A DNA stretch of 64,000 nucleotides from Eledone cirrhosa (Eukaryota): positions 22,506,001-22,570,000 of the forward strand of contig OZ024758.1 in the NCBI GenBank assembly GCA_964016885.1, given 5' to 3'. Under the pieces are notes generated by a model. The model was not told the origin of the DNA. It saw only the letters and a program-made list of their open reading frames with translations, and ran no database searches. Positions 4,347 through 63,587 of the stretch are shown one piece after another. Numbering within the stretch: position 1 is the first letter of the stretch; each line of letters opens with the position of its first letter. Position numbers and translations under genes: made by a program.

Positions 4347-6476
4347 ATATACTAGCAGAAAAACCTTTGTGTGGTTTTCTCTAGCATGTGTAGTGTGCAT
4401 ATTGATATTATACGCAAATATACATGCATGTAGATATGATACGTCAAATAAAATCGTAATTGACAATATGCACAGAAATTGAAGAGAATCTGTGTTACAC
4501 TGTCTTCTGTAATCAGTAAAGTAATCCATGATACATTTAAAAAAGACGATATTATATATAAACTGCATTACGGCAAAATTTTATGAAAACGAAAAAGAAG
4601 AAAATTAGCGGACTAAATATAAACCTTATATAACGATGCAAATATATGAATGTTTATATAAGCGATGTAATAAGTGTTATAATATAATGGCCGCGAACCG
4701 GAAGTGTTGACATTTGAAAATTATAAAAGAAGTGAATCGGTATATATGAAACCATTATATATAAGAATATTTATGTTTAATCAACAGCAACGAAATTTAG
4801 TAGATAAATTATGTAATATTCATTCATTACTAAAGTACCAGTAATGCACTGGGTATTTTGCTGGCATTGTGCCTAAAGTAGAAACAATTATTTATTCAAA
4901 GTAAGCCAACTTATTTTAATAACGGGAAAAATAATATATTCAGGACACAGTCCCGCACTCCTTCCTATATTATATTATGGTATAAGGGATAAGACGGAAG
5001 CTCAAAGAAATGAAAATTGGAATATAGTATATTTTGGTGGTAAAATTTTATAAACATATATGATTGTGCATGCAACCATATACGAGAATACGATAACAAA
5101 CTTCAATATTCGATAAGATTGACATACTATTTAAAGTAACTTAAATTCAATTAATGTACCAAATATGAAAATATTTATTCTGCGGGGTTAAAGAAAATAA
5201 AAGAATCTTTAAAAATTCTTCACTTTGAAATTTTACCTATAATCTTCGATTTGTATGGAACTTTACCCCCATTTTCAACTATATATAAGACTAAAATCCA
5301 AAGAGGGCTCGATAAGGATAAATATATATCAAATATATAAGAACCGTAGAGCAAATATTTATTAAAATAACAGATTAAAGTTTAAGTAAAGAATCGCTGC
5401 TTTCACCCTTAACGGGATCTTCTGAAGCTAACAAAGTCAATCTGTAAACGCAGAAGTGGATATTTCAAAAAACGTTGCAACCGGAGGAAGACAGGAAGAC
5501 GATACTTTGGTTCGTGGAAACGTTCGCTATGCAAATAAGTAATGGTATAAACAAAACATATACTTAGCTCCCACATCAAGACGTAAAATATCCACGTATA
5601 AATCGTACTATCCGTTAGGGTATAACGTGGGGCTGTAATACAGGAAAGTTTTGTGCAATTTATGTTTACAATTTATGTGACCTCTGTGCCGCTGAGGCCC
5701 TGGAAATACTCTACGCCACTGACCACATCTTAAACAAAAAATCTGAGGCAATTTCGGCTTGTAAACATAAATTGCACAAAACCTTCCTGTATTACAGCCC
5801 CACGTTATACCCTAACGGATAGGATACTCTAACATATATTATATATATTATATATATATATATATAATATATATTTTATATATATAATATATATTTTATA
5901 TATATTATATATATTTTATATATATTATATATATTATATATATATTATATATATATTATATATTATATATATATATTTATATTATACATATATTATATAT
6001 ATATTATATATATTTTATATATATTATATATATATTATATATATAGGCGGTGGATTGGCAGTATCGGTAGAGGGTCGGACGCCATGCTTTCCAGCATAGT
6101 TACGTCCCTTTTCGATCTGAGTTCAAATCCCGCCGAGGTTGACTTTGCCTTTCATCCTTACGGGGTCGATAAAATAAAGTACCAGTAATGCACTGGGTAA
6201 TTGCTGGCCTTGTGCCTAATGTAGAAACAATTATATATATATTATATATATATTATATATATATTATATATATTATATATATATATTATATATATTATAT
6301 ATATATATTATATATATATATTATATATATTATATATATATTATATATATTATATATATATATATTATATATATATATATATTATATATATATATATATT
6401 ATATATATTATATATATATATATTATATATATATATATATTATATATATATATATATTATATATATATATATATAT

Positions 6477-9410: not shown

Positions 9411-9787
9411 TATATACGATATTAAATAAATGGAAACTATATTTATAAAACCATATTTATTTCATTATATATATTTCAGGGATATCATATTAACAATATG
9501 CTATGCCTTCCTCAGACAAAATACAATATAGACAGTTTTATAGATAAATAGATTTGACATACCGTTCAACATCGACTTGTATTTGAAAAGTTGATTTGCC
9601 AAATCAACTTTTCAAATACAAGTCGATGTTGAACGGTATGTCAAATCTATTTATCTATAAAACTGTCTATATTGTATTTTGTCTGAGGAAGGCATAGCAT
9701 ATTGTTAATATGATATCCCTGAAATATATATAATGAAATAAATATGGTTTTATAAATATAGTTTCCATTTATTTAATATCGTATATA
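9411..9787. repeat. perfect palindrome, arms of about 188 bp, 1-nt spacer at 9599
   Basis: Centre gatttg-c-caaatc; arms appear identical by eye. Confidence 0.95.
9675..9740 (+). ncRNA. hammerhead motif (mirror copy at 9458-9523, minus strand)
   Basis: tattttgt-CTGAGGA-[long imperfect stem II]-GAAA-tatata-TA-atgaaata. Related copies at 10628-10693 (-) and 20318-20378 (-, CTGATGA core). Confidence 0.7.
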
Positions 9788-27565: not shown

Positions 27566-28560
27566 ATACTTTGGGAGGGTCATGTTGCCAATAAGAAACA
27601 CACGCACCAGTTGCTTTCACTTCGATTTATTATATATTTATAAATTTATAAATTTACAATTTAGCATAAGATGTACTGAAGGACAATGTAGAAACAAAAA
27701 TATAGTGTAAAAAATATAGTGTACATAGGTGAGACAGCTCGTAGTATAGGGGAACGAATAAATGAACACTGGCGAGACCTTCAAGATAATAAAGAATCAT
27801 CTGTGCTCTACCAACATGCTAAGATAGAACACAGGGGTAGATTAGAGAACATAGAAATAAAAATAGAATCCACACACAGAAAAGATGCAATGTTTAGGCA
27901 AATTACAGAGGCAGTAAGCATAAAAGAATTACAACCAAAATTAAATAGAAAATATGAGTGGAACAGCAACATCACAACTTACAATTAAGGACAAAATGAA
28001 AACACACACAGGACAAAATGAAAACACACACACACATAGAACAAACAACTTACAATTAAGGACAAAATGAAAACACACACAGGACAAAATGAAAACACAC
28101 ACACACATAGAACAAACAACCAACCAACAATAAATAAATAAATAAATAAATAAACAAATAGATAAATGAACACAAACACACACAGACACCCGGAGGTGGC
28201 GCATGCGCAAACTGAGCACACAACACACACACAGAAACAAAATAGCGTAGGATAGAAGAAAGGAAAGGCACAGAAACAAAGAAAGGAATCCCCAGTCACT
28301 GATGAGGTCACAGAGTGTGTGACGAAAGGACTATGACTATATATAAACAACTATCTGGTTGTGGAACCAACCAACCAACCAGAAATTTATAAGTTTGTAG
28401 ATTTGTAAATTTATAAATTTATAAATATATAATAAATCGAAGTGAAAGCAACTGGTGCGTGTGTTTCTTATTGGCAACATGACCCTCCCAAAGTATAACA
28501 ATATCGGTTTCAACACACGATTTCAGATAAAGAATCTTGCTAAACAAATTCAGAAACGAA
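27562..28560 (+). mobile_element. 5'-truncated Penelope-like retroelement (GIY-YIG remnant + hammerhead-bearing terminal repeat + inverted partial repeat)
   Basis: ORF 27719-27988 has YIGET.RS..ER..EH...EA..IK...PKLN, a GIY-YIG C-terminal pattern. 27562-27650 is an inverted copy of about 28410-28500. Flanked by (TA)n. Confidence 0.85.
28294..28338 (+). ncRNA. minimal type I hammerhead ribozyme motif in Penelope-like 3' repeat
   Basis: agtca-CTGATGA-g-gtcaca(gagtg)tgtgac-GAAA-ggac-TA-tgact; about 300 nt downstream of a GIY-YIG remnant. Confidence 0.8.
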
Positions 28561-37524: not shown

Positions 37525-37724
37525 NNNNNNNNNNNNNNNNNNNNNNNNNNNNNNNNNNNNNNNNNNNNNNNNNNNNNNNNNNNNNNNNNNNNNNNNNNNN
37601 NNNNNNNNNNNNNNNNNNNNNNNNNNNNNNNNNNNNNNNNNNNNNNNNNNNNNNNNNNNNNNNNNNNNNNNNNNNNNNNNNNNNNNNNNNNNNNNNNNNN
37701 NNNNNNNNNNNNNNNNNNNNNNNN
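37525..37724. other. assembly gap (200 N)
   Basis: Run of exactly 200 n. Confidence 0.99.
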
Positions 37725-49153: not shown

Positions 49154-49262
49154 AAATTTCAGGTTATCAATAATGTAGTGATAATATATCGTTACGTTAG
49201 AGATGAACAGCGTACGTGCAGGTTTGCTCAACGAGTATAAATTATATTCCGGAGAAATGTAG

Positions 49263-50403
49263 AAAGGATGAATATAAAATGAAAGTGCTTTTGTTAAAAA
49301 AGGAATTTATTAGGTATTGACATATGTTTCTGTAACAGACCGAATACCTATGTATCGCTGCTTGCGTAATCATATAATGTTAGCAAGTATTCGATAGCAA
49401 ATGTATAATCAGTTGTCACTTCTTCAGAGATTTTGGATAAACTGGATAAAATCAGAAAAATTGAAGTATTTATATTAGTAAAAGAGGAAGGAACAGAGGG
49501 GATAGAATATGACAGATGGTAAAATAATTTACTGCTAAACAAGTATATAATGGGTTTTTAATGAGAATACCATGAGTAAATCTAAATAAGAATTTTGGGG
49601 GTGCCGATTTTAATCTCTACTTGACCAACTGGACAGTGGACAGGGCTGGTCATTTGGTGCAGTAGTATTAATCATAAAGTGTCAATTGGGGAAGGGGGAG
49701 ATTTCGATTGCTACTAAATAACATCAATGCTAGTGGTCAGCTGGTATTTCCACTAGGGAATTGAATCAAAAAATCAGAAATCTCATTTTATCTATAGCAG
49801 TTTGTATTAAAAGGTAAATAATAGAAGAGTTGATAGAATTAAGACTAATAAAGAATGTTCATATCTATTTTGACAATCAAACGGGGATAGAGACAGGCGT
49901 TCAATCCTGGTAGTATTTATAATATGAAAATGTAGATTTTTAAGCGATGGTTACAGTATAACGATCGCTCTATTCTGTTATTTAATAAAATGTTTTTGGA
50001 TTTCATAATACAAAATAATTCTACATTACATAATCTACAAAATTCCTGTCCATTGGAATATGGGGGGGGCAGTCGCTATTATATCCCATTTTAGGTGAAA
50101 TTGTTGGTTATTTTCACGCAGCTGCCAAGCCTTGTCTGCGAGTGTTGTTACATAACGCTGGTTTTCATGTTTTATCGAATAACGATGTCTATAAAGGCGT
50201 GATTTAAAGGAGGTGGCTGTAGATCCCACATAGTACCACTTCTGTCTATCCGATTCGATAGTACATTTGTATACGATGTTGCTAACATTATATGATTACG
50301 CAAGCAGCGATACATAGGTATTCGGTCTGTTACAGAAACATATGTCAATACCTAATAAATTCCTTTTTTAACAAAAGCACTTTCATTTTATATTCATCCT
50401 TTC
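49263..50403 (-). mobile_element. Penelope-like GIY-YIG endonuclease remnant with inverted duplication
   Basis: Minus frame at about 50035-50290 reads NIVYKC...YYVGSTATSFKSRLYRHRYS...LKWDII. 49263-49385 is an inverted copy of about 50280-50403. Embedded in (TA)n. Confidence 0.75.
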
Positions 50404-50558
<155 letters not shown>

Positions 50559-57644: not shown

Positions 57645-58560
57645 TTAATTTCTTCCTCTGCTTTGAGATATTTTTCACTGCTACAAGGGAATTCAGTCCC
57701 CTTTCTTGACCGGTGTATCACGTGGTAATTTCTCCCTCTGCCTTGAGATATTTTTCACTGCTACCAGGGGGGATTCAGTCCCCTTTCTTGACCGGTGTAT
57801 CACGTGGTAATTTCTCCCTCTGCCTTGAGATTTTCTCACTGCTACCAGGGAATTCAGTCCCCTTTCTTGACCGGTGTATCACGGGCTAATTTCTCCCTCC
57901 GCCTTTGAGATTTTCTCACTGCTACCAGGGAATTCAGTCCCCTTTCTTGACCGGTGTATCACGTGGTAATTTCTCCCTCTGCCTTGAGATATTTTTCACT
58001 GCTACATGGGAATTCAGTCCCCTTTCTTGACCGGTGTATCCTGGGCTAATTTCTCCCTCCGCCTTTGAGATTTTCTCACTGCTACCAGGGAATTCAGCCC
58101 CCTTTCTTGACCGGTGTATCACGTGGTAATTTCTCCCTCTGCCTTGAGATATTTTTCACTGCTACAAGAGAATTCAGTCCCCTTTCTTGACCGGTGTATC
58201 CTGGGCTAATTTCTCCCTCCGCCTTTGAGATTTTCTCACTGCTACCAGGGAATTCAGCCCCCTTTCTTGACCGGTGTATCACGTGGTAATTTCTCCCTCT
58301 GCCTTGAGATATTTTTCACTGCTACAAGAGAATTCAGTCCCCTTTCTTGACCGGTGTATCACGGGCTAATTTCTCCCTCCGCCTTTGAGATTTTCTCACT
58401 GCTACCAGGGAATTCAGTCCCCTTTCTTGACCGGTGTTTCACGTGGTAATTTCTCCCTCTGCCTTGAGATATTTTTCACTGCTACAAGGGAATTCAGTCC
58501 CCTTTCTTGACCGGTGTATCACGGGCTAATTTCTCCCTCCGCCTTTGAGATTTTCTCACT
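57645..58560. repeat. 80-bp minisatellite with alternating A/B variants (160-bp higher-order unit), about 11.5 copies
   Basis: gaattcagtcccctttcttgaccggtgtatc recurs every 80 bp (57930, 58010, 58090...); variants alternate. Confidence 0.95.
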
Positions 58561-59354: not shown

Positions 59355-59394
<40 letters not shown>

Positions 59395-59461
59395 GTGTAT
59401 ATATATATATGTGTGTATATATATATGTGTGTATATATATATATATGTATATATATATATG

Positions 59462-59493
<32 letters not shown>

Positions 59494-59595
59494 TATGTAT
59501 ATGTGTATATATTTATATATATATGTATATGTGTATATATTTATATATGTGTATATATTTATATGTATATATATATATATGTATATATATATATG

Positions 59596-59626
<31 letters not shown>

Positions 59627-59725
59627 GTATATATATATGTATATATATATATATGTATATATATATGTATATATATATATATATGTATGTATATATATAT
59701 ATGTATATGTATGTATATATATATG

Positions 59726-59762
<37 letters not shown>

Positions 59763-59812
59763 GTATATATATAATATATAAGATCAAAAGATGGTTAAAG
59801 GAGTTCCATGTA

Positions 59813-59879
59813 TTTTATTATGCGCATTTCAAAAACAAACATCATCATGCAATAATATTTGTGTTTTCATCAGATAAAA
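59813..59879 (-). ncRNA. minimal type I hammerhead ribozyme motif (mirror copy)
   Basis: Reverse complement of 60473-60539 in the other arm of the palindrome. Confidence 0.85.
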
Positions 59880-60472
59880 CAGGACATGATATGAAGGCTA
59901 AAAAACACTTGTGGATAGTGCAGTTTTAAATCAACATATGAGAAGTAGTTTTAGATTAATGTGTGATATTGGGAAAAAAATATTTTATTTAGAGAGGGGG
60001 GTGGAAAGGATGAAAAAAAGGGGAGGAGATGAGAGTGAAGGTGGAGAGGGAGAGGTGGGTGATAGAGAGAGAGAGATAGTTTTTATAACTGAGAAAGATA
60101 TATTGTTTTACATAGAGAGGTTGAAAACCGTTGGAAGATAATGTATAAATTAAAAGAATTTGAAAATTTCCCTTCGTTAATTTTCAAATTCTTTTAATTT
60201 ATACATTATCTTCCAACGGTTTTCAACCTCTCTATGTAAAACAATATATCTTTCTCAGTTATAAAAACTATCTCTCTCTCTCTATCACCCACCTCTCCCT
60301 CTCCACCTTCACTCTCATCTCCTCCCCTTTTTTTCATCCTTTCCACCCCCCCCTCTCTAAATAAAATATTTTTTCCCCAATATCACACATCAATCTAAAA
60401 CTACTTCTCATATGTTGATTTAAAACTGCACTATCCACAAGTGTTTTTTAGCCTTCATATCATGTCCTCCTG

Positions 60473-60539
60473 TTTTATCTGATGAAAACACAAATATTAT
60501 TGCATGATGATGTTTGTTTTTGAAATGCGCATAATAAAA
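60473..60539 (+). ncRNA. minimal type I hammerhead ribozyme motif
   Basis: ttttat-CTGATGA-[16-bp stem II, one mismatch, GCAT loop]-GAAA-tgcgca-TA-ataaaa; 6-bp stem I; palindromic stem III ATGCGCAT. Confidence 0.85.
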
Positions 60540-60667
60540 TACATGGAACTCCTTTAACCATCTTTTGATCTTATATATTATGTATACTCCAGTCCTACAA
60601 ACTGTAGAGTGCTTCTTATCCGATATCTGCATTGCTTTATTGTACTACAATAAAACTCACCTCCTAC

Positions 60668-60762
<95 letters not shown>

Positions 60763-60874
60763 TATGTTTATATATATATGTATATATATATATGTATATA
60801 TATATATGTATATATATATATGTATATATATATGTATATATATATATATGTATATATATATATGTATATATATG

Positions 60875-60927
<53 letters not shown>

Positions 60928-60970
60928 ATATATATATATATGTATATATATATCTGTATATATATATATG

Positions 60971-61025
<55 letters not shown>

Positions 61026-61669
61026 GTGTGTATACATATATATATATATATGTGTGTGTGTATGAGTATATGCGAGTGCATGTGTATGTATATATATATA
61101 TATATATATGTGTGTATGTACGAGCGCACGCATGTACCACTAGACAGAGGGCGCTTAAACAAACTGTGAAATCAAGTAATGATTGTTTTGTTGCATATGA
61201 AGCGTATCCTAAAACAGACGCTATCTCGTCTGTTTTACAAATGTCGTGCCATAATCGTCGTTCTTCATTTATGTTGAGAACAGTCGAACAGAACTTTTCT
61301 GTAAATCACTTCTCGATCTTCTTCCATTAACTCGTTTAACCTTTAACACTTTTAAATTTAAATTTATAGAATTTGTCCGTAAAATCTTTTCAGTGATATT
61401 TTTCCTGGGACATTCTAACTACATGCCTATAGCATCGGGCAAAACCAATCGTCAGGAGACGCAGAGGTAGACCCAGAGCAAGATGGTTGTATAACATCCG
61501 TGAGCTTGGTTTCTCTCGCTTGGAGATCCAGTCGGATCAGTTGGAGACGATTGCTTCTGACAGGACTCGCTGCTGGAAGGAGTTTTTTGAGGACTCTGAT
61601 CCCACCATAATGTTCTCAGGAATAAGTGACCGGCGAAGAAGAGGAAGAAGAAACCATAAAACTATTGAT

Positions 61670-62534: not shown

Positions 62535-62692
62535 GTTATATAGTAAACAAACGTCACGAATTAAGCCGTACAGTGTCTAGCAACCATCGTTGCTCATTTG
62601 TTCAACACTGACAAAGGAACGCTTAATATGCCGTTAATATGCATAAGGAAAGTATATACTTTCAGACGTTCAATCATCTGGCAGGAAGGTAT

Positions 62693-62735
62693 ACGTTGCT
62701 GACGATAGCTAATAAGCTTGAAACTAGTACAGCGT
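62693..62735 (+). ncRNA. minimal type I hammerhead motif
   Basis: acgttg-CTGACGA-tagct(aata)agctt-GAAA-ctag-TA-cagcgt; palindromic ACTAGT; U-U mismatch at the base of stem II. Confidence 0.75.
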
Positions 62736-63587
62736 TCCTTTGTCAGTGTTGAACAAACGAGCAACGATGGTTGCTAGACACTGTACGGCTTAATACGGGA
62801 TGTTTGTTTACAAACACACCGAGCATTATAATAAATGTTCGGTGAATCCATACTTACATATATATATGTGTGCATGTATGTATATATATATACATACTAC
62901 TGTACCTCTGTATACATATATGTATGTACGTATACATACTTATATATATATATATAACGAAGGAAATGTGGTAAGGAACCAGGTGGACCATAACGCACCA
63001 AAGTACTCAATACTTAGGGTAGTAGAGTGGGTAATAGGAACGAGTAGGACCCCGACGGCTGAGCTCAAGCCGTTTAGACGGCTAATTGAGTCTAGAATTA
63101 GCCGTCGAAATGGCTTGAGCTCAGGCGTCGGTGTCCTACTCGTTCCTATATATATATATAGAGAGAGAGATATAGTTGAAAATTGCAAACTTGACTGTCA
63201 CCACAGAATATGAACCTGAAGATTGCGAAAGCATGAAAGTACTTGTTCAATTAATACTTAACATTTAATATTCTACCATACTATTTCATTCTAATACCAT
63301 TATAATTTTAAAGGATTGTAAATAAAACTAGTAAATCAGACAAAGTTGGAATTCATTTTATTTATATATATATATATATATGATGGCTGGAAATTCTGCT
63401 ACGAGTTTGCAATCGCTTGTCAGGTTATAGAGTTTGATGCACTTTTAGGCTACGGCCAGCCACACGAACCTGTAACAGACCCTGAACAAGCAATGCCTGT
63501 GCTTTGAAGGTGTTTTAAGTGGGGAAAGGCCTTGCACTCGACCAATCCCACTCTCTGAGCATCGCAAACACTACCCTCATCGGATGC

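What the first reader, a model, noticed from the sequence alone, without database searches (positions are those of the whole stretch)
59771..60581. 810-bp palindrome presenting an intact hammerhead on each strand
Seen: arms of about 400 bp with a 10-nt spacer; each arm contains the best-formed hammerhead of the window (60473-60539 +, 59813-59879 -). The right arm continues about 85 nt beyond the mirrored part before the (TA)n. Inference: a fold-back product of Penelope-type reverse transcription. Transcription in either direction would give a long dsRNA hairpin (ADAR/Dicer substrate) that also sequesters the ribozyme. The small differences between arms (one 3-nt indel, homopolymer lengths) argue against a pure assembly artefact.
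Basis: partly seen in the sequence, partly recalled or inferred. Interest (0 to 1): 0.75.

Follow-up and report, generated by a model that had tools for sequence, protein, structure and literature searches.

The report
Head-to-head Penelope-like retroelement insertion
This mirror-image stretch is one of many look-alike insertions of a young Penelope-like jumping gene in this animal genome, and the family's ends suggest that both strands of the cut DNA were likely used to copy the same RNA from two fixed start points, a known layout whose making is still unsettled.

Summary
The palindrome is in the assembly as described: arms 59771-60168 and 60179-60581, a 10-nt spacer, a type I hammerhead motif in each arm, and an 87-nt extension (60582-60668) before (TA)n. 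It is the 3' end (3'UTR plus pLTR) of a young Penelope-like element (PLE) with Hydra-clade protein motifs, inserted in (TA)n as an inverted tail-less copy plus a direct tailed copy. The layout is published (Craig 2021: Penelope-13_HM, hammerhead on both strands). It is common here: 433 exact tail-less and 550 tailed ends. In sampled insertions the two ends are unlike (75 and 46 mixed pairs, no clear like-with-like pair), arms share alleles (61 of 64), and in 14 of 70 the arms do not overlap. This favours coupled priming of both target strands at two sites of one RNA over fold-back of one cDNA, though this copy fits either. The dsRNA-hairpin idea is untested; the inferred element promoters point outward. 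No read bridged this junction. Earlier scan notes report the same two-sided pattern for other repeats in this genome. Verdict: ordinary locus, mechanistically informative family.

The parts
59362..59770 (.). Left (TA)n flank, the target microsatellite
   Evidence: TRF; sequence
59771..60168 (-). Inverted, 5'-truncated, tail-less copy of the element's 3'UTR + pLTR; its outer end lies in a TA-like motif of the element
   Evidence: reference positions 1349-1755
59813..59879 (-). Type I hammerhead motif of the inverted arm, identical to the right-arm motif
59939..59939 (-). Inferred transcript start of the left pLTR, pointing outward (leftward)
   Evidence: mirror of 60410; inference
60167..60178 (+). 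Head-to-head junction: 2-nt TT overlap (60167-68) and 10-nt spacer (60169-78) that is element 3'UTR present only in the direct arm
60167..60668 (+). Direct, 5'-truncated, tailed copy of the element's 3'UTR + pLTR
   Evidence: reference positions 1337-1836
60410..60410 (+). Inferred transcript start in the pLTR: 52 of 104 arms that reach this base stop at it
   Evidence: start-site reading is inference
60473..60539 (+). Type I hammerhead motif with self-complementary stem III (dimer type); predicted cut after 60533
   Evidence: compared with the Hydra HHR table
60582..60668 (+). 87-nt 'tail', present at this end only; in a tandem copy it runs on into the 5'UTR, 79 nt before the ORF's ATG
60669..61051 (.). 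Right (TA)n flank
   Evidence: TRF

Best explanation
The palindrome is a 5'-truncated insertion of a young Penelope-like retroelement family into a (TA)n repeat, made of an inverted tail-less copy and a direct tailed copy, and it likely arose when the element's enzyme cut both DNA strands and used each cut end to copy the same RNA from a different fixed start point. Shown: family identity, copy numbers, one tailed and one tail-less end per insertion, shared alleles between arms, independent truncation points, short overlaps at junctions. Inferred: (1) the RT-endonuclease nicks both strands of (TA)n; (2) one 3' end primes at the tail end (60668), the other 87 nt upstream at a TA-like motif of the RNA (about 60572-60581); (3) both cDNAs run toward the RNA's 5' end, the distal one having to displace the proximal one, which would explain why it often stops early; (4) the two cDNA 3' ends join by 1-6-nt overlaps (TT here); (5) repair fills the second strands. 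When priming is in the 5' pLTR both cDNAs would run off the transcript start at 60410 and give the common ~430-bp solo palindromes; this copy extends ~240 nt further, so its template would have been the 3' pLTR of a longer RNA. The hammerheads come along with the pLTR; the second one is a by-product of the inversion. Confidence in the identity as a head-to-head PLE insertion is about 0.95; the number given is for the one-RNA, two-site mechanism.
For: Family: 40 scored copies at 97-99% identity among 1888 candidates; 433 exact tail-less and 550 exact tailed ends, reversed-pattern controls 0. Coupling: of 100 tail-less ends (99 genomic sites plus the window), 75 have an inverted tailed partner, 0 a tail-less one, 5 another end, 20 none seen; of 57 tailed ends on contig C1, 46 have a tail-less partner (14, 32), 0 a tailed one, 2 another end, 9 none. 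Free choice of start site gives P about 1e-19 and 4e-17. Same template: at a site that is about half C and half T, arms agree in 61 of 64 insertions, 51% expected, P 6e-15; minor alleles shared 73% against 21% for shuffled pairs; a 36-nt haplotype of this locus occurs 3 times in the genome, twice in these two arms. Two primings: in 70 complete insertions the tail-less arm is longer by more than 20 nt in 29, the tailed arm in 6, and 14 have no overlap. In vitro precedent: an Anolis PLE protein cuts and extends both strands, starts at two RNA sites that bound the tail, and is predicted to be a dimer (PMC11167929).
Against: This copy's junction is near-symmetric (offset 12 nt). Outside the 60410 hot spot such junctions are in excess, 8 of 35 against 1.3 expected, as fold-back would give (a shared break in the RNA would too). 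Three of 64 insertions disagree at the test site, and L092 disagrees at 4 of 5 polymorphic sites, so some insertions use two templates or were later converted. Shared alleles could also come from two RNAs of one source locus or from gene conversion between arms. One site (L107) has a second, inverted tail-less copy 87 nt away across a TA run and may be an exception. PMC11167929 saw no difference in start site between strands in vitro. Samples come from contigs C1-C2 only and from exact-match patterns, so they favour young copies. The transcript start and a cap-copied C (16 C among 35 stops without an ATAT overlap; several could come from the partner arm) are suggestive only.
Confidence: 0.6

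Rival explanations
1. Fold-back (self-priming) made this copy: one cDNA primed at the tail end stopped at 60167, its 3' AA paired with TT 10 nt back, synthesis copied the cDNA itself, and the product joined the other target end at the element's TA-like motif, leaving the tail unmirrored.
For: Geometry fits exactly: tail-less arm contained in the tailed arm, 10-nt loop, 2-nt overlap. Near-symmetric junctions are in excess outside the hot spot (8 of 35, 1.3 expected). Explains shared alleles. Self-priming was proposed for such junction palindromes (PMC3846280 Discussion).
Against: Cannot produce the 29 of 70 insertions with a longer tail-less arm or the 14 without overlap, so a second mechanism would be needed in the same family. 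Because both cDNAs have the same sequence, folding back and annealing to the partner cDNA give the same product, so the geometry does not single this out.
Confidence: 0.2
2. A dimeric enzyme carries two RNA molecules, usually from the same source locus, and primes one at each site.
For: Avoids the need for strand displacement; explains the discordant insertions L066, L105, L151, L092; dimer predicted.
Against: Does not by itself explain why one arm is always tailed and the other not, nor why the tailed arm so often stops inside the 87-nt tail (14 of 70).
Confidence: 0.14
3. Assembly artefact: a chimeric fold-back read duplicated one arm.
For: No contig or read bridged this junction in X1-X3, X4 or X22-X24; the tool states that such a hole proves nothing, and these runs need not be of this individual.
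Against: Both arms carry their own changes (compared with the closest third copy). The left end sits at the family's fixed tail-less site, shared by 433 places. Raw Illumina reads of other samples show tail-less ends running into (TA)n (229 and 203 reads), a tail joined to an inverted arm (97 reads) and opposite-strand joints.
Confidence: 0.03
4. The hairpin is kept by the host as a regulatory dsRNA (Dicer or ADAR substrate, ribozyme trap).
For: A read-through transcript would fold into a ~400-bp duplex that buries the hammerhead.
Against: The copy is young and one of many alike; no host coding gene is evident in the window (ORF list only); inferred element promoters face outward; no sign of conservation was tested or seen.
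Confidence: 0.03

Closest known systems
Hydra-clade PLEs, especially Penelope-13_HM (Craig et al. 2021, PMC8557442; passages and supplement files S1-S2 read)
   Same: C-terminal GIY-YIG without the CCHH cysteines, DKT, CxCX5C linker, CxxC and CxH motifs, (TA)n target, type I hammerhead with a ~4-bp stem III. [quoted passage not shown]
   Different: A different family from the listed Hydra-1_Obim (hammerhead sequence differs). About 3.5 kb with a ~1-kb 3'UTR, tail 87 nt against the 30-40 nt described, RW[T/I] in place of RWK.
Poseidon element PAc of Anolis (Frangieh et al. 2024, PMC11167929; main text parts 1-2 of 4 read)
   Same: Two internal RT start sites bounding the tail, AT-rich target, both strands cut and extended, hammerhead just upstream.
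   Different: Other clade; there the sites lie inside the ORF, here 79 nt or more before the ATG; the parts read do not state that each insertion uses one site per strand.
Inverted pLTR insertions of Adineta vaga Penelope (Arkhipova et al. 2013, PMC3846280; passages and Discussion read) and opposite-strand hammerhead pairs 100-700 bp apart in Schistosoma (Cervera and de la Pena 2014, PMC4209133; parts 1-2 of 4 read)
   Same: Head-to-head copies, tail on one end, palindromic junction; two hammerheads on opposite strands (about 590 bp apart here).
   Different: Those papers explain the junction by self-priming or leave it open; the family data here need two priming events.
L1 twin priming
   Same: Second target strand primes internally on the same RNA, giving an inversion joined by microhomology.
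   Different: In L1 the internal site varies and the arms barely overlap; here the site is fixed, use is near-obligatory and arms can overlap by hundreds of bases.

Membership tests
EN+ Penelope-like element | Single ORF with RT and GIY-YIG endonuclease | tested here: met
   [quoted passage not shown] Pfam scan of P0001 itself gave no relevant hit.
EN+ Penelope-like element | Partial tandems forming pLTRs; inverted 5'-truncated copy; tail at one end | tested here: met
   Partial tandem in L120; inverted partners in 75 of 100 and 46 of 57 ends; tail 87 nt, longer than the 30-40 nt described.
EN+ Penelope-like element | Target-site duplication | tested here: inconclusive
   Both flanks are (TA)n; a duplication cannot be read.
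Hydra clade | DKT in place of DKG | tested here: met
   HSDKTNN in P0001; definition.
Hydra clade | CxCX5C linker before the endonuclease; no CCHH cysteine pair inside GIY-YIG | tested here: met
   CNCRIKNKC; one Cys only between the two GIY-YIG half motifs, not conserved in homologues.
Hydra clade | [quoted passage not shown] | tested here: met
   CNLCLNE ... NRRTDLFSICLH.
Hydra clade | RWK motif near the N terminus | tested here: inconclusive
   RWI in L120, RWT in L010, L127, L129; RWK in 7 of 10 aligned homologues.
Hydra clade | Insertion into (TA)n; canonical hammerhead in the pLTR | tested here: met
   Outer flanks are TA-type repeats in 42 of 43 tailed ends printed; motif matches the layout of the Hydra HHR table.
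Hydra clade | Placement in the Hydra clade on an RT tree | not tested
   No reference PLE proteins were held as tool records; filed as a probable member on motifs. The paper's 'generally <3 kb' is a typical, not diagnostic, trait: this family is about 3.5 kb (L172).
Neptune / Nematis clades | CX2-5CxxC linker and CCHH motif | tested here: not met
   Linker is CxCX5C and the CCHH cysteine pair is absent. My first reading (Neptune) was dropped.
Type I hammerhead ribozyme | CUGANGA and GAAA cores, stems I-II, NUH site | tested here: met
   A-U instead of G-C at 10.1-11.1; stem III self-complementary.
Type I hammerhead ribozyme | Match to an Rfam hammerhead model | tested here: not met
   None at gathering or E<=10; minimal PLE hammerheads are variants found by descriptor search, so this does not exclude the motif.
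Type I hammerhead ribozyme | Self-cleavage | not testable with these tools
   Published PLE motifs of this type cleave weakly, as dimers or with protein help.
Non-LTR retrozyme | Head-to-tail tandem of short hammerhead monomers without ORF | tested here: not met
   One pLTR per arm, continuous with the 3'UTR of an ORF-bearing element.
MITE / TIR DNA transposon | Fixed terminal inverted repeats around a fixed body | tested here: not met
   Ends are asymmetric by 87 nt and the turning point varies over 3 kb between copies.

The most novel reading that the evidence does not exclude
Hydra-type PLEs integrate by obligatory coupled twin priming: one ribonucleoprotein cuts both strands of (TA)n and starts reverse transcription at two fixed sites 87 nt apart on one RNA, one site per strand, so every complete insertion is head-to-head with one tailed and one tail-less end; the commonest product is a ~430-bp palindrome formed when both cDNAs run off the capped 5' end of the RNA. 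This would explain the PLE tail and inverted pLTRs without fold-back or endonuclease resolution.
Probability: 0.55. Interest if true: 0.65.

Novelty: new member of a known kind. Interest (0 to 1): 0.4.

Why it matters
The locus itself is ordinary. How PLEs make inverted copies and a one-sided tail is named as an open problem in PMC8557442 and left unvalidated in PMC11167929. This young family gives a countable genomic rule (unlike ends, same template, arms that need not overlap) and exact start sites, which makes the question testable with the published in vitro system. If many of these palindromes lie in introns they would also be a source of long dsRNA, which was not examined.

Tried and rejected
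Neptune assignment: rejected on motifs. Idea that the 3-nt indel marks a second source RNA: rejected; the deletion occurs at 29 places on different haplotypes, and in both other inspected insertions with overlapping arms (2 of 12 loci) only one arm has it, so it is recurrent slippage. One search used a mistyped pattern and is void; one search replaced it. Rfam: no hammerhead; miRNA-precursor hits at the hairpin centre are all below gathering and only reflect the hairpin. PDB search with the ORF: nothing. Pfam on the ORF: nothing relevant. Sequencing runs: no RNA holder listed, so expression was not tested. Read support for this junction: inconclusive (RAD run X24 laid no read). Papers on a killifish Neptune element (PMC12602865), an octopus repeat annotation (PMC13282606) and the retrozyme preprint (10.64898/2026.07.22.740005) were seen as passages only and added nothing on inverted insertions. 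A genome-wide search for diverged hammerhead relatives, to test covariation, was not obtained. Rows left out of counts: L058 (same content as L057), and L093 (tandem neighbour of L093b); nine short loci were replaced by longer fetches of the same sites.

Full report
Observation. The two arms align over 408 columns with 400 matches. The paired part is 59771-60168 against 60179-60581, flanked by (TA)n on both sides. The spacer is 10 nt, the right arm runs on for 87 nt (60582-60668), and each arm holds the same type I hammerhead motif. A transcript through both arms would fold at -681.8 kcal/mol. The motif is plausible but not clearly the best in the window: it has no Rfam match, folds alone no better than shuffles, and the motif at 28299 is closer to the published minimal consensus.

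What the arm is. A search of the own genome with 331 nt of the right arm gave 1888 candidates; the 40 scored were 97-99% identical apart from the window itself. Upstream of such copies lie a ~1-kb 3'UTR and an ORF. [quoted passage not shown] DKT, the CxCX5C linker, CxxC and CxH, and the missing CCHH cysteines match the description of the Hydra clade in PMC8557442 (passages); RWK is RWT or RWI here and no tree was run. In L120 the tail runs on into the 5'UTR and the ATG follows 79 nt later, so both outer ends of the palindrome are internal positions of the element's RNA. The supplement of PMC8557442 lists Penelope-13_HM with an inverted truncated copy and a hammerhead on each strand; PMC4209133 notes opposite-strand hammerhead pairs 100-700 bp apart; PMC3846280 describes inverted pLTRs with a one-sided tail. 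The layout is therefore known.

How common. Exact patterns found 433 tail-less and 550 tailed ends. I examined the first 100 listed tail-less sites (contigs C1, C2; one dropped as a duplicate, window added) and all 57 tailed sites listed on C1. Tail-less ends: 75 with an inverted tailed partner, none with a contiguous tail-less partner (L107 is a possible exception across 87 nt of TA), 5 other, 20 none seen. Tailed ends: 46 with a tail-less partner, none with a tailed one, 2 other, 9 none. Free choice of start site is rejected.

Junctions. In 70 complete insertions the turning points of the two arms differ by more than 20 nt in 35: tail-less arm longer in 29, by up to 3 kb, tailed arm longer in 6; 14 have no overlap. 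Most junctions show overlaps of a few bases or short inserts. Half involve one hot spot, the base equal to 60410: 52 of 104 arms that reach it stop there, and 16 of the 35 stops without an ATAT overlap are followed by C. I read this as the capped 5' end of the RNA; that is inference, and some of the Cs may belong to the partner arm. Outside the hot spot near-symmetric junctions, this one included, number 8 of 35 against 1.3 expected.

Template. Arms of one insertion agree at a half-and-half C/T site in 61 of 64 cases and share minor alleles in 73% against 21% for shuffled pairs. The window's arms share a haplotype found at only one other place in the genome. Their differences fall on both arms, and the 3-nt deletion is a recurrent slip found at 29 places. 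L092 disagrees at 4 of 5 sites and L066, L105 and L151 at the test site, so two-template events or later conversion occur in a minority. Conversion between arms could also inflate the agreement.

Mechanism. The data fit priming of both cut strands at two fixed sites of one RNA, followed by joining of the two cDNA ends. PMC11167929 shows in vitro, for another clade, cutting and extension of both strands and two start sites bounding the tail; it reports no strand difference in start site and leaves later steps open. PMC8557442 ascribes the tail to endonuclease resolution and PMC3846280 the junction to self-priming. Four paper searches showed no paper stating one start site per strand for PLEs; the library lacks most subscription papers, and supplements of the preprint could not be read. 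For this one copy fold-back cannot be excluded, since folding back and annealing to the partner cDNA give the same sequence.

Artefact. Raw reads of other samples hold the family's tail-less ends, tail-to-inverted-arm joins and opposite-strand joints. No record bridged this locus's own junction, which the tool says proves nothing. Fixed family ends and changes on both arms make an artefact unlikely.

Hairpin function. Untested: no RNA run was listed. The inferred starts at 60410 (+) and 59939 (-) face outward, so the element's own RNAs would not form the long hairpin; read-through from outside would, and would bury the hammerhead. The two hammerheads are on opposite strands and cannot pair as a dimer within one such RNA.

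Earlier scan notes. The look-up by sequence found nothing. The look-up by place, made after the analysis above, returned notes on other DNA of this genome with the same two-sided reading for retrozyme arrays and one head-to-head Hydra-type PLE; I did not check their loci and they are not counted as evidence.

Verdict. Real, known in kind, one of many alike; the family adds countable evidence on an open step. Interest 0.4.

Noticed in passing
window 9440-9760: A second, smaller near-perfect palindrome (199 nt, 99.5%) of another family with a hammerhead-like core on each strand (9683 +, 9515 -) and a short right-hand extension before (TA)n.
   Followed up: no
window 10289, 28299, 38501 (+) and 16622 (-): Four hammerhead motifs of a further family; the one at 28299 has the bulged base and G-C closing pair of the minimal consensus.
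   Followed up: partly
window 50068-50280 (-) and 5673-5786 (+): Endonuclease remnants related to the family's protein (tblastn E 2e-10 and 1e-5); the first lies beside a short inverted pair 49257-49386 / 50279-50408.
   Followed up: no
L172 (G000:C1:275198849-275205849): A full-length tailed arm (about 3.5 kb) stops about 11 nt into the upstream tail, right at the second copy of the distal start site.
   Followed up: no
L092 (G000:C2:197512269-197520269): The two arms belong to different subfamilies (4 of 5 polymorphic sites differ): a two-template insertion or later conversion.
   Followed up: partly
L120, L122, L097 and others, 3'UTR: The 3'UTR carries variable internal tandem duplications (about 111-116 nt and 210-225 nt units) that appear in both arms of long insertions.
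   Followed up: no
window 62543-62811: An older, degenerate palindrome of another repeat family (76% identity), resembling one upstream of L120.
   Followed up: no
window 37525-37724: A 200-N assembly gap.
   Followed up: no
window 57646-58560: Tandem array of an 80-bp unit, 11.4 copies.
   Followed up: no
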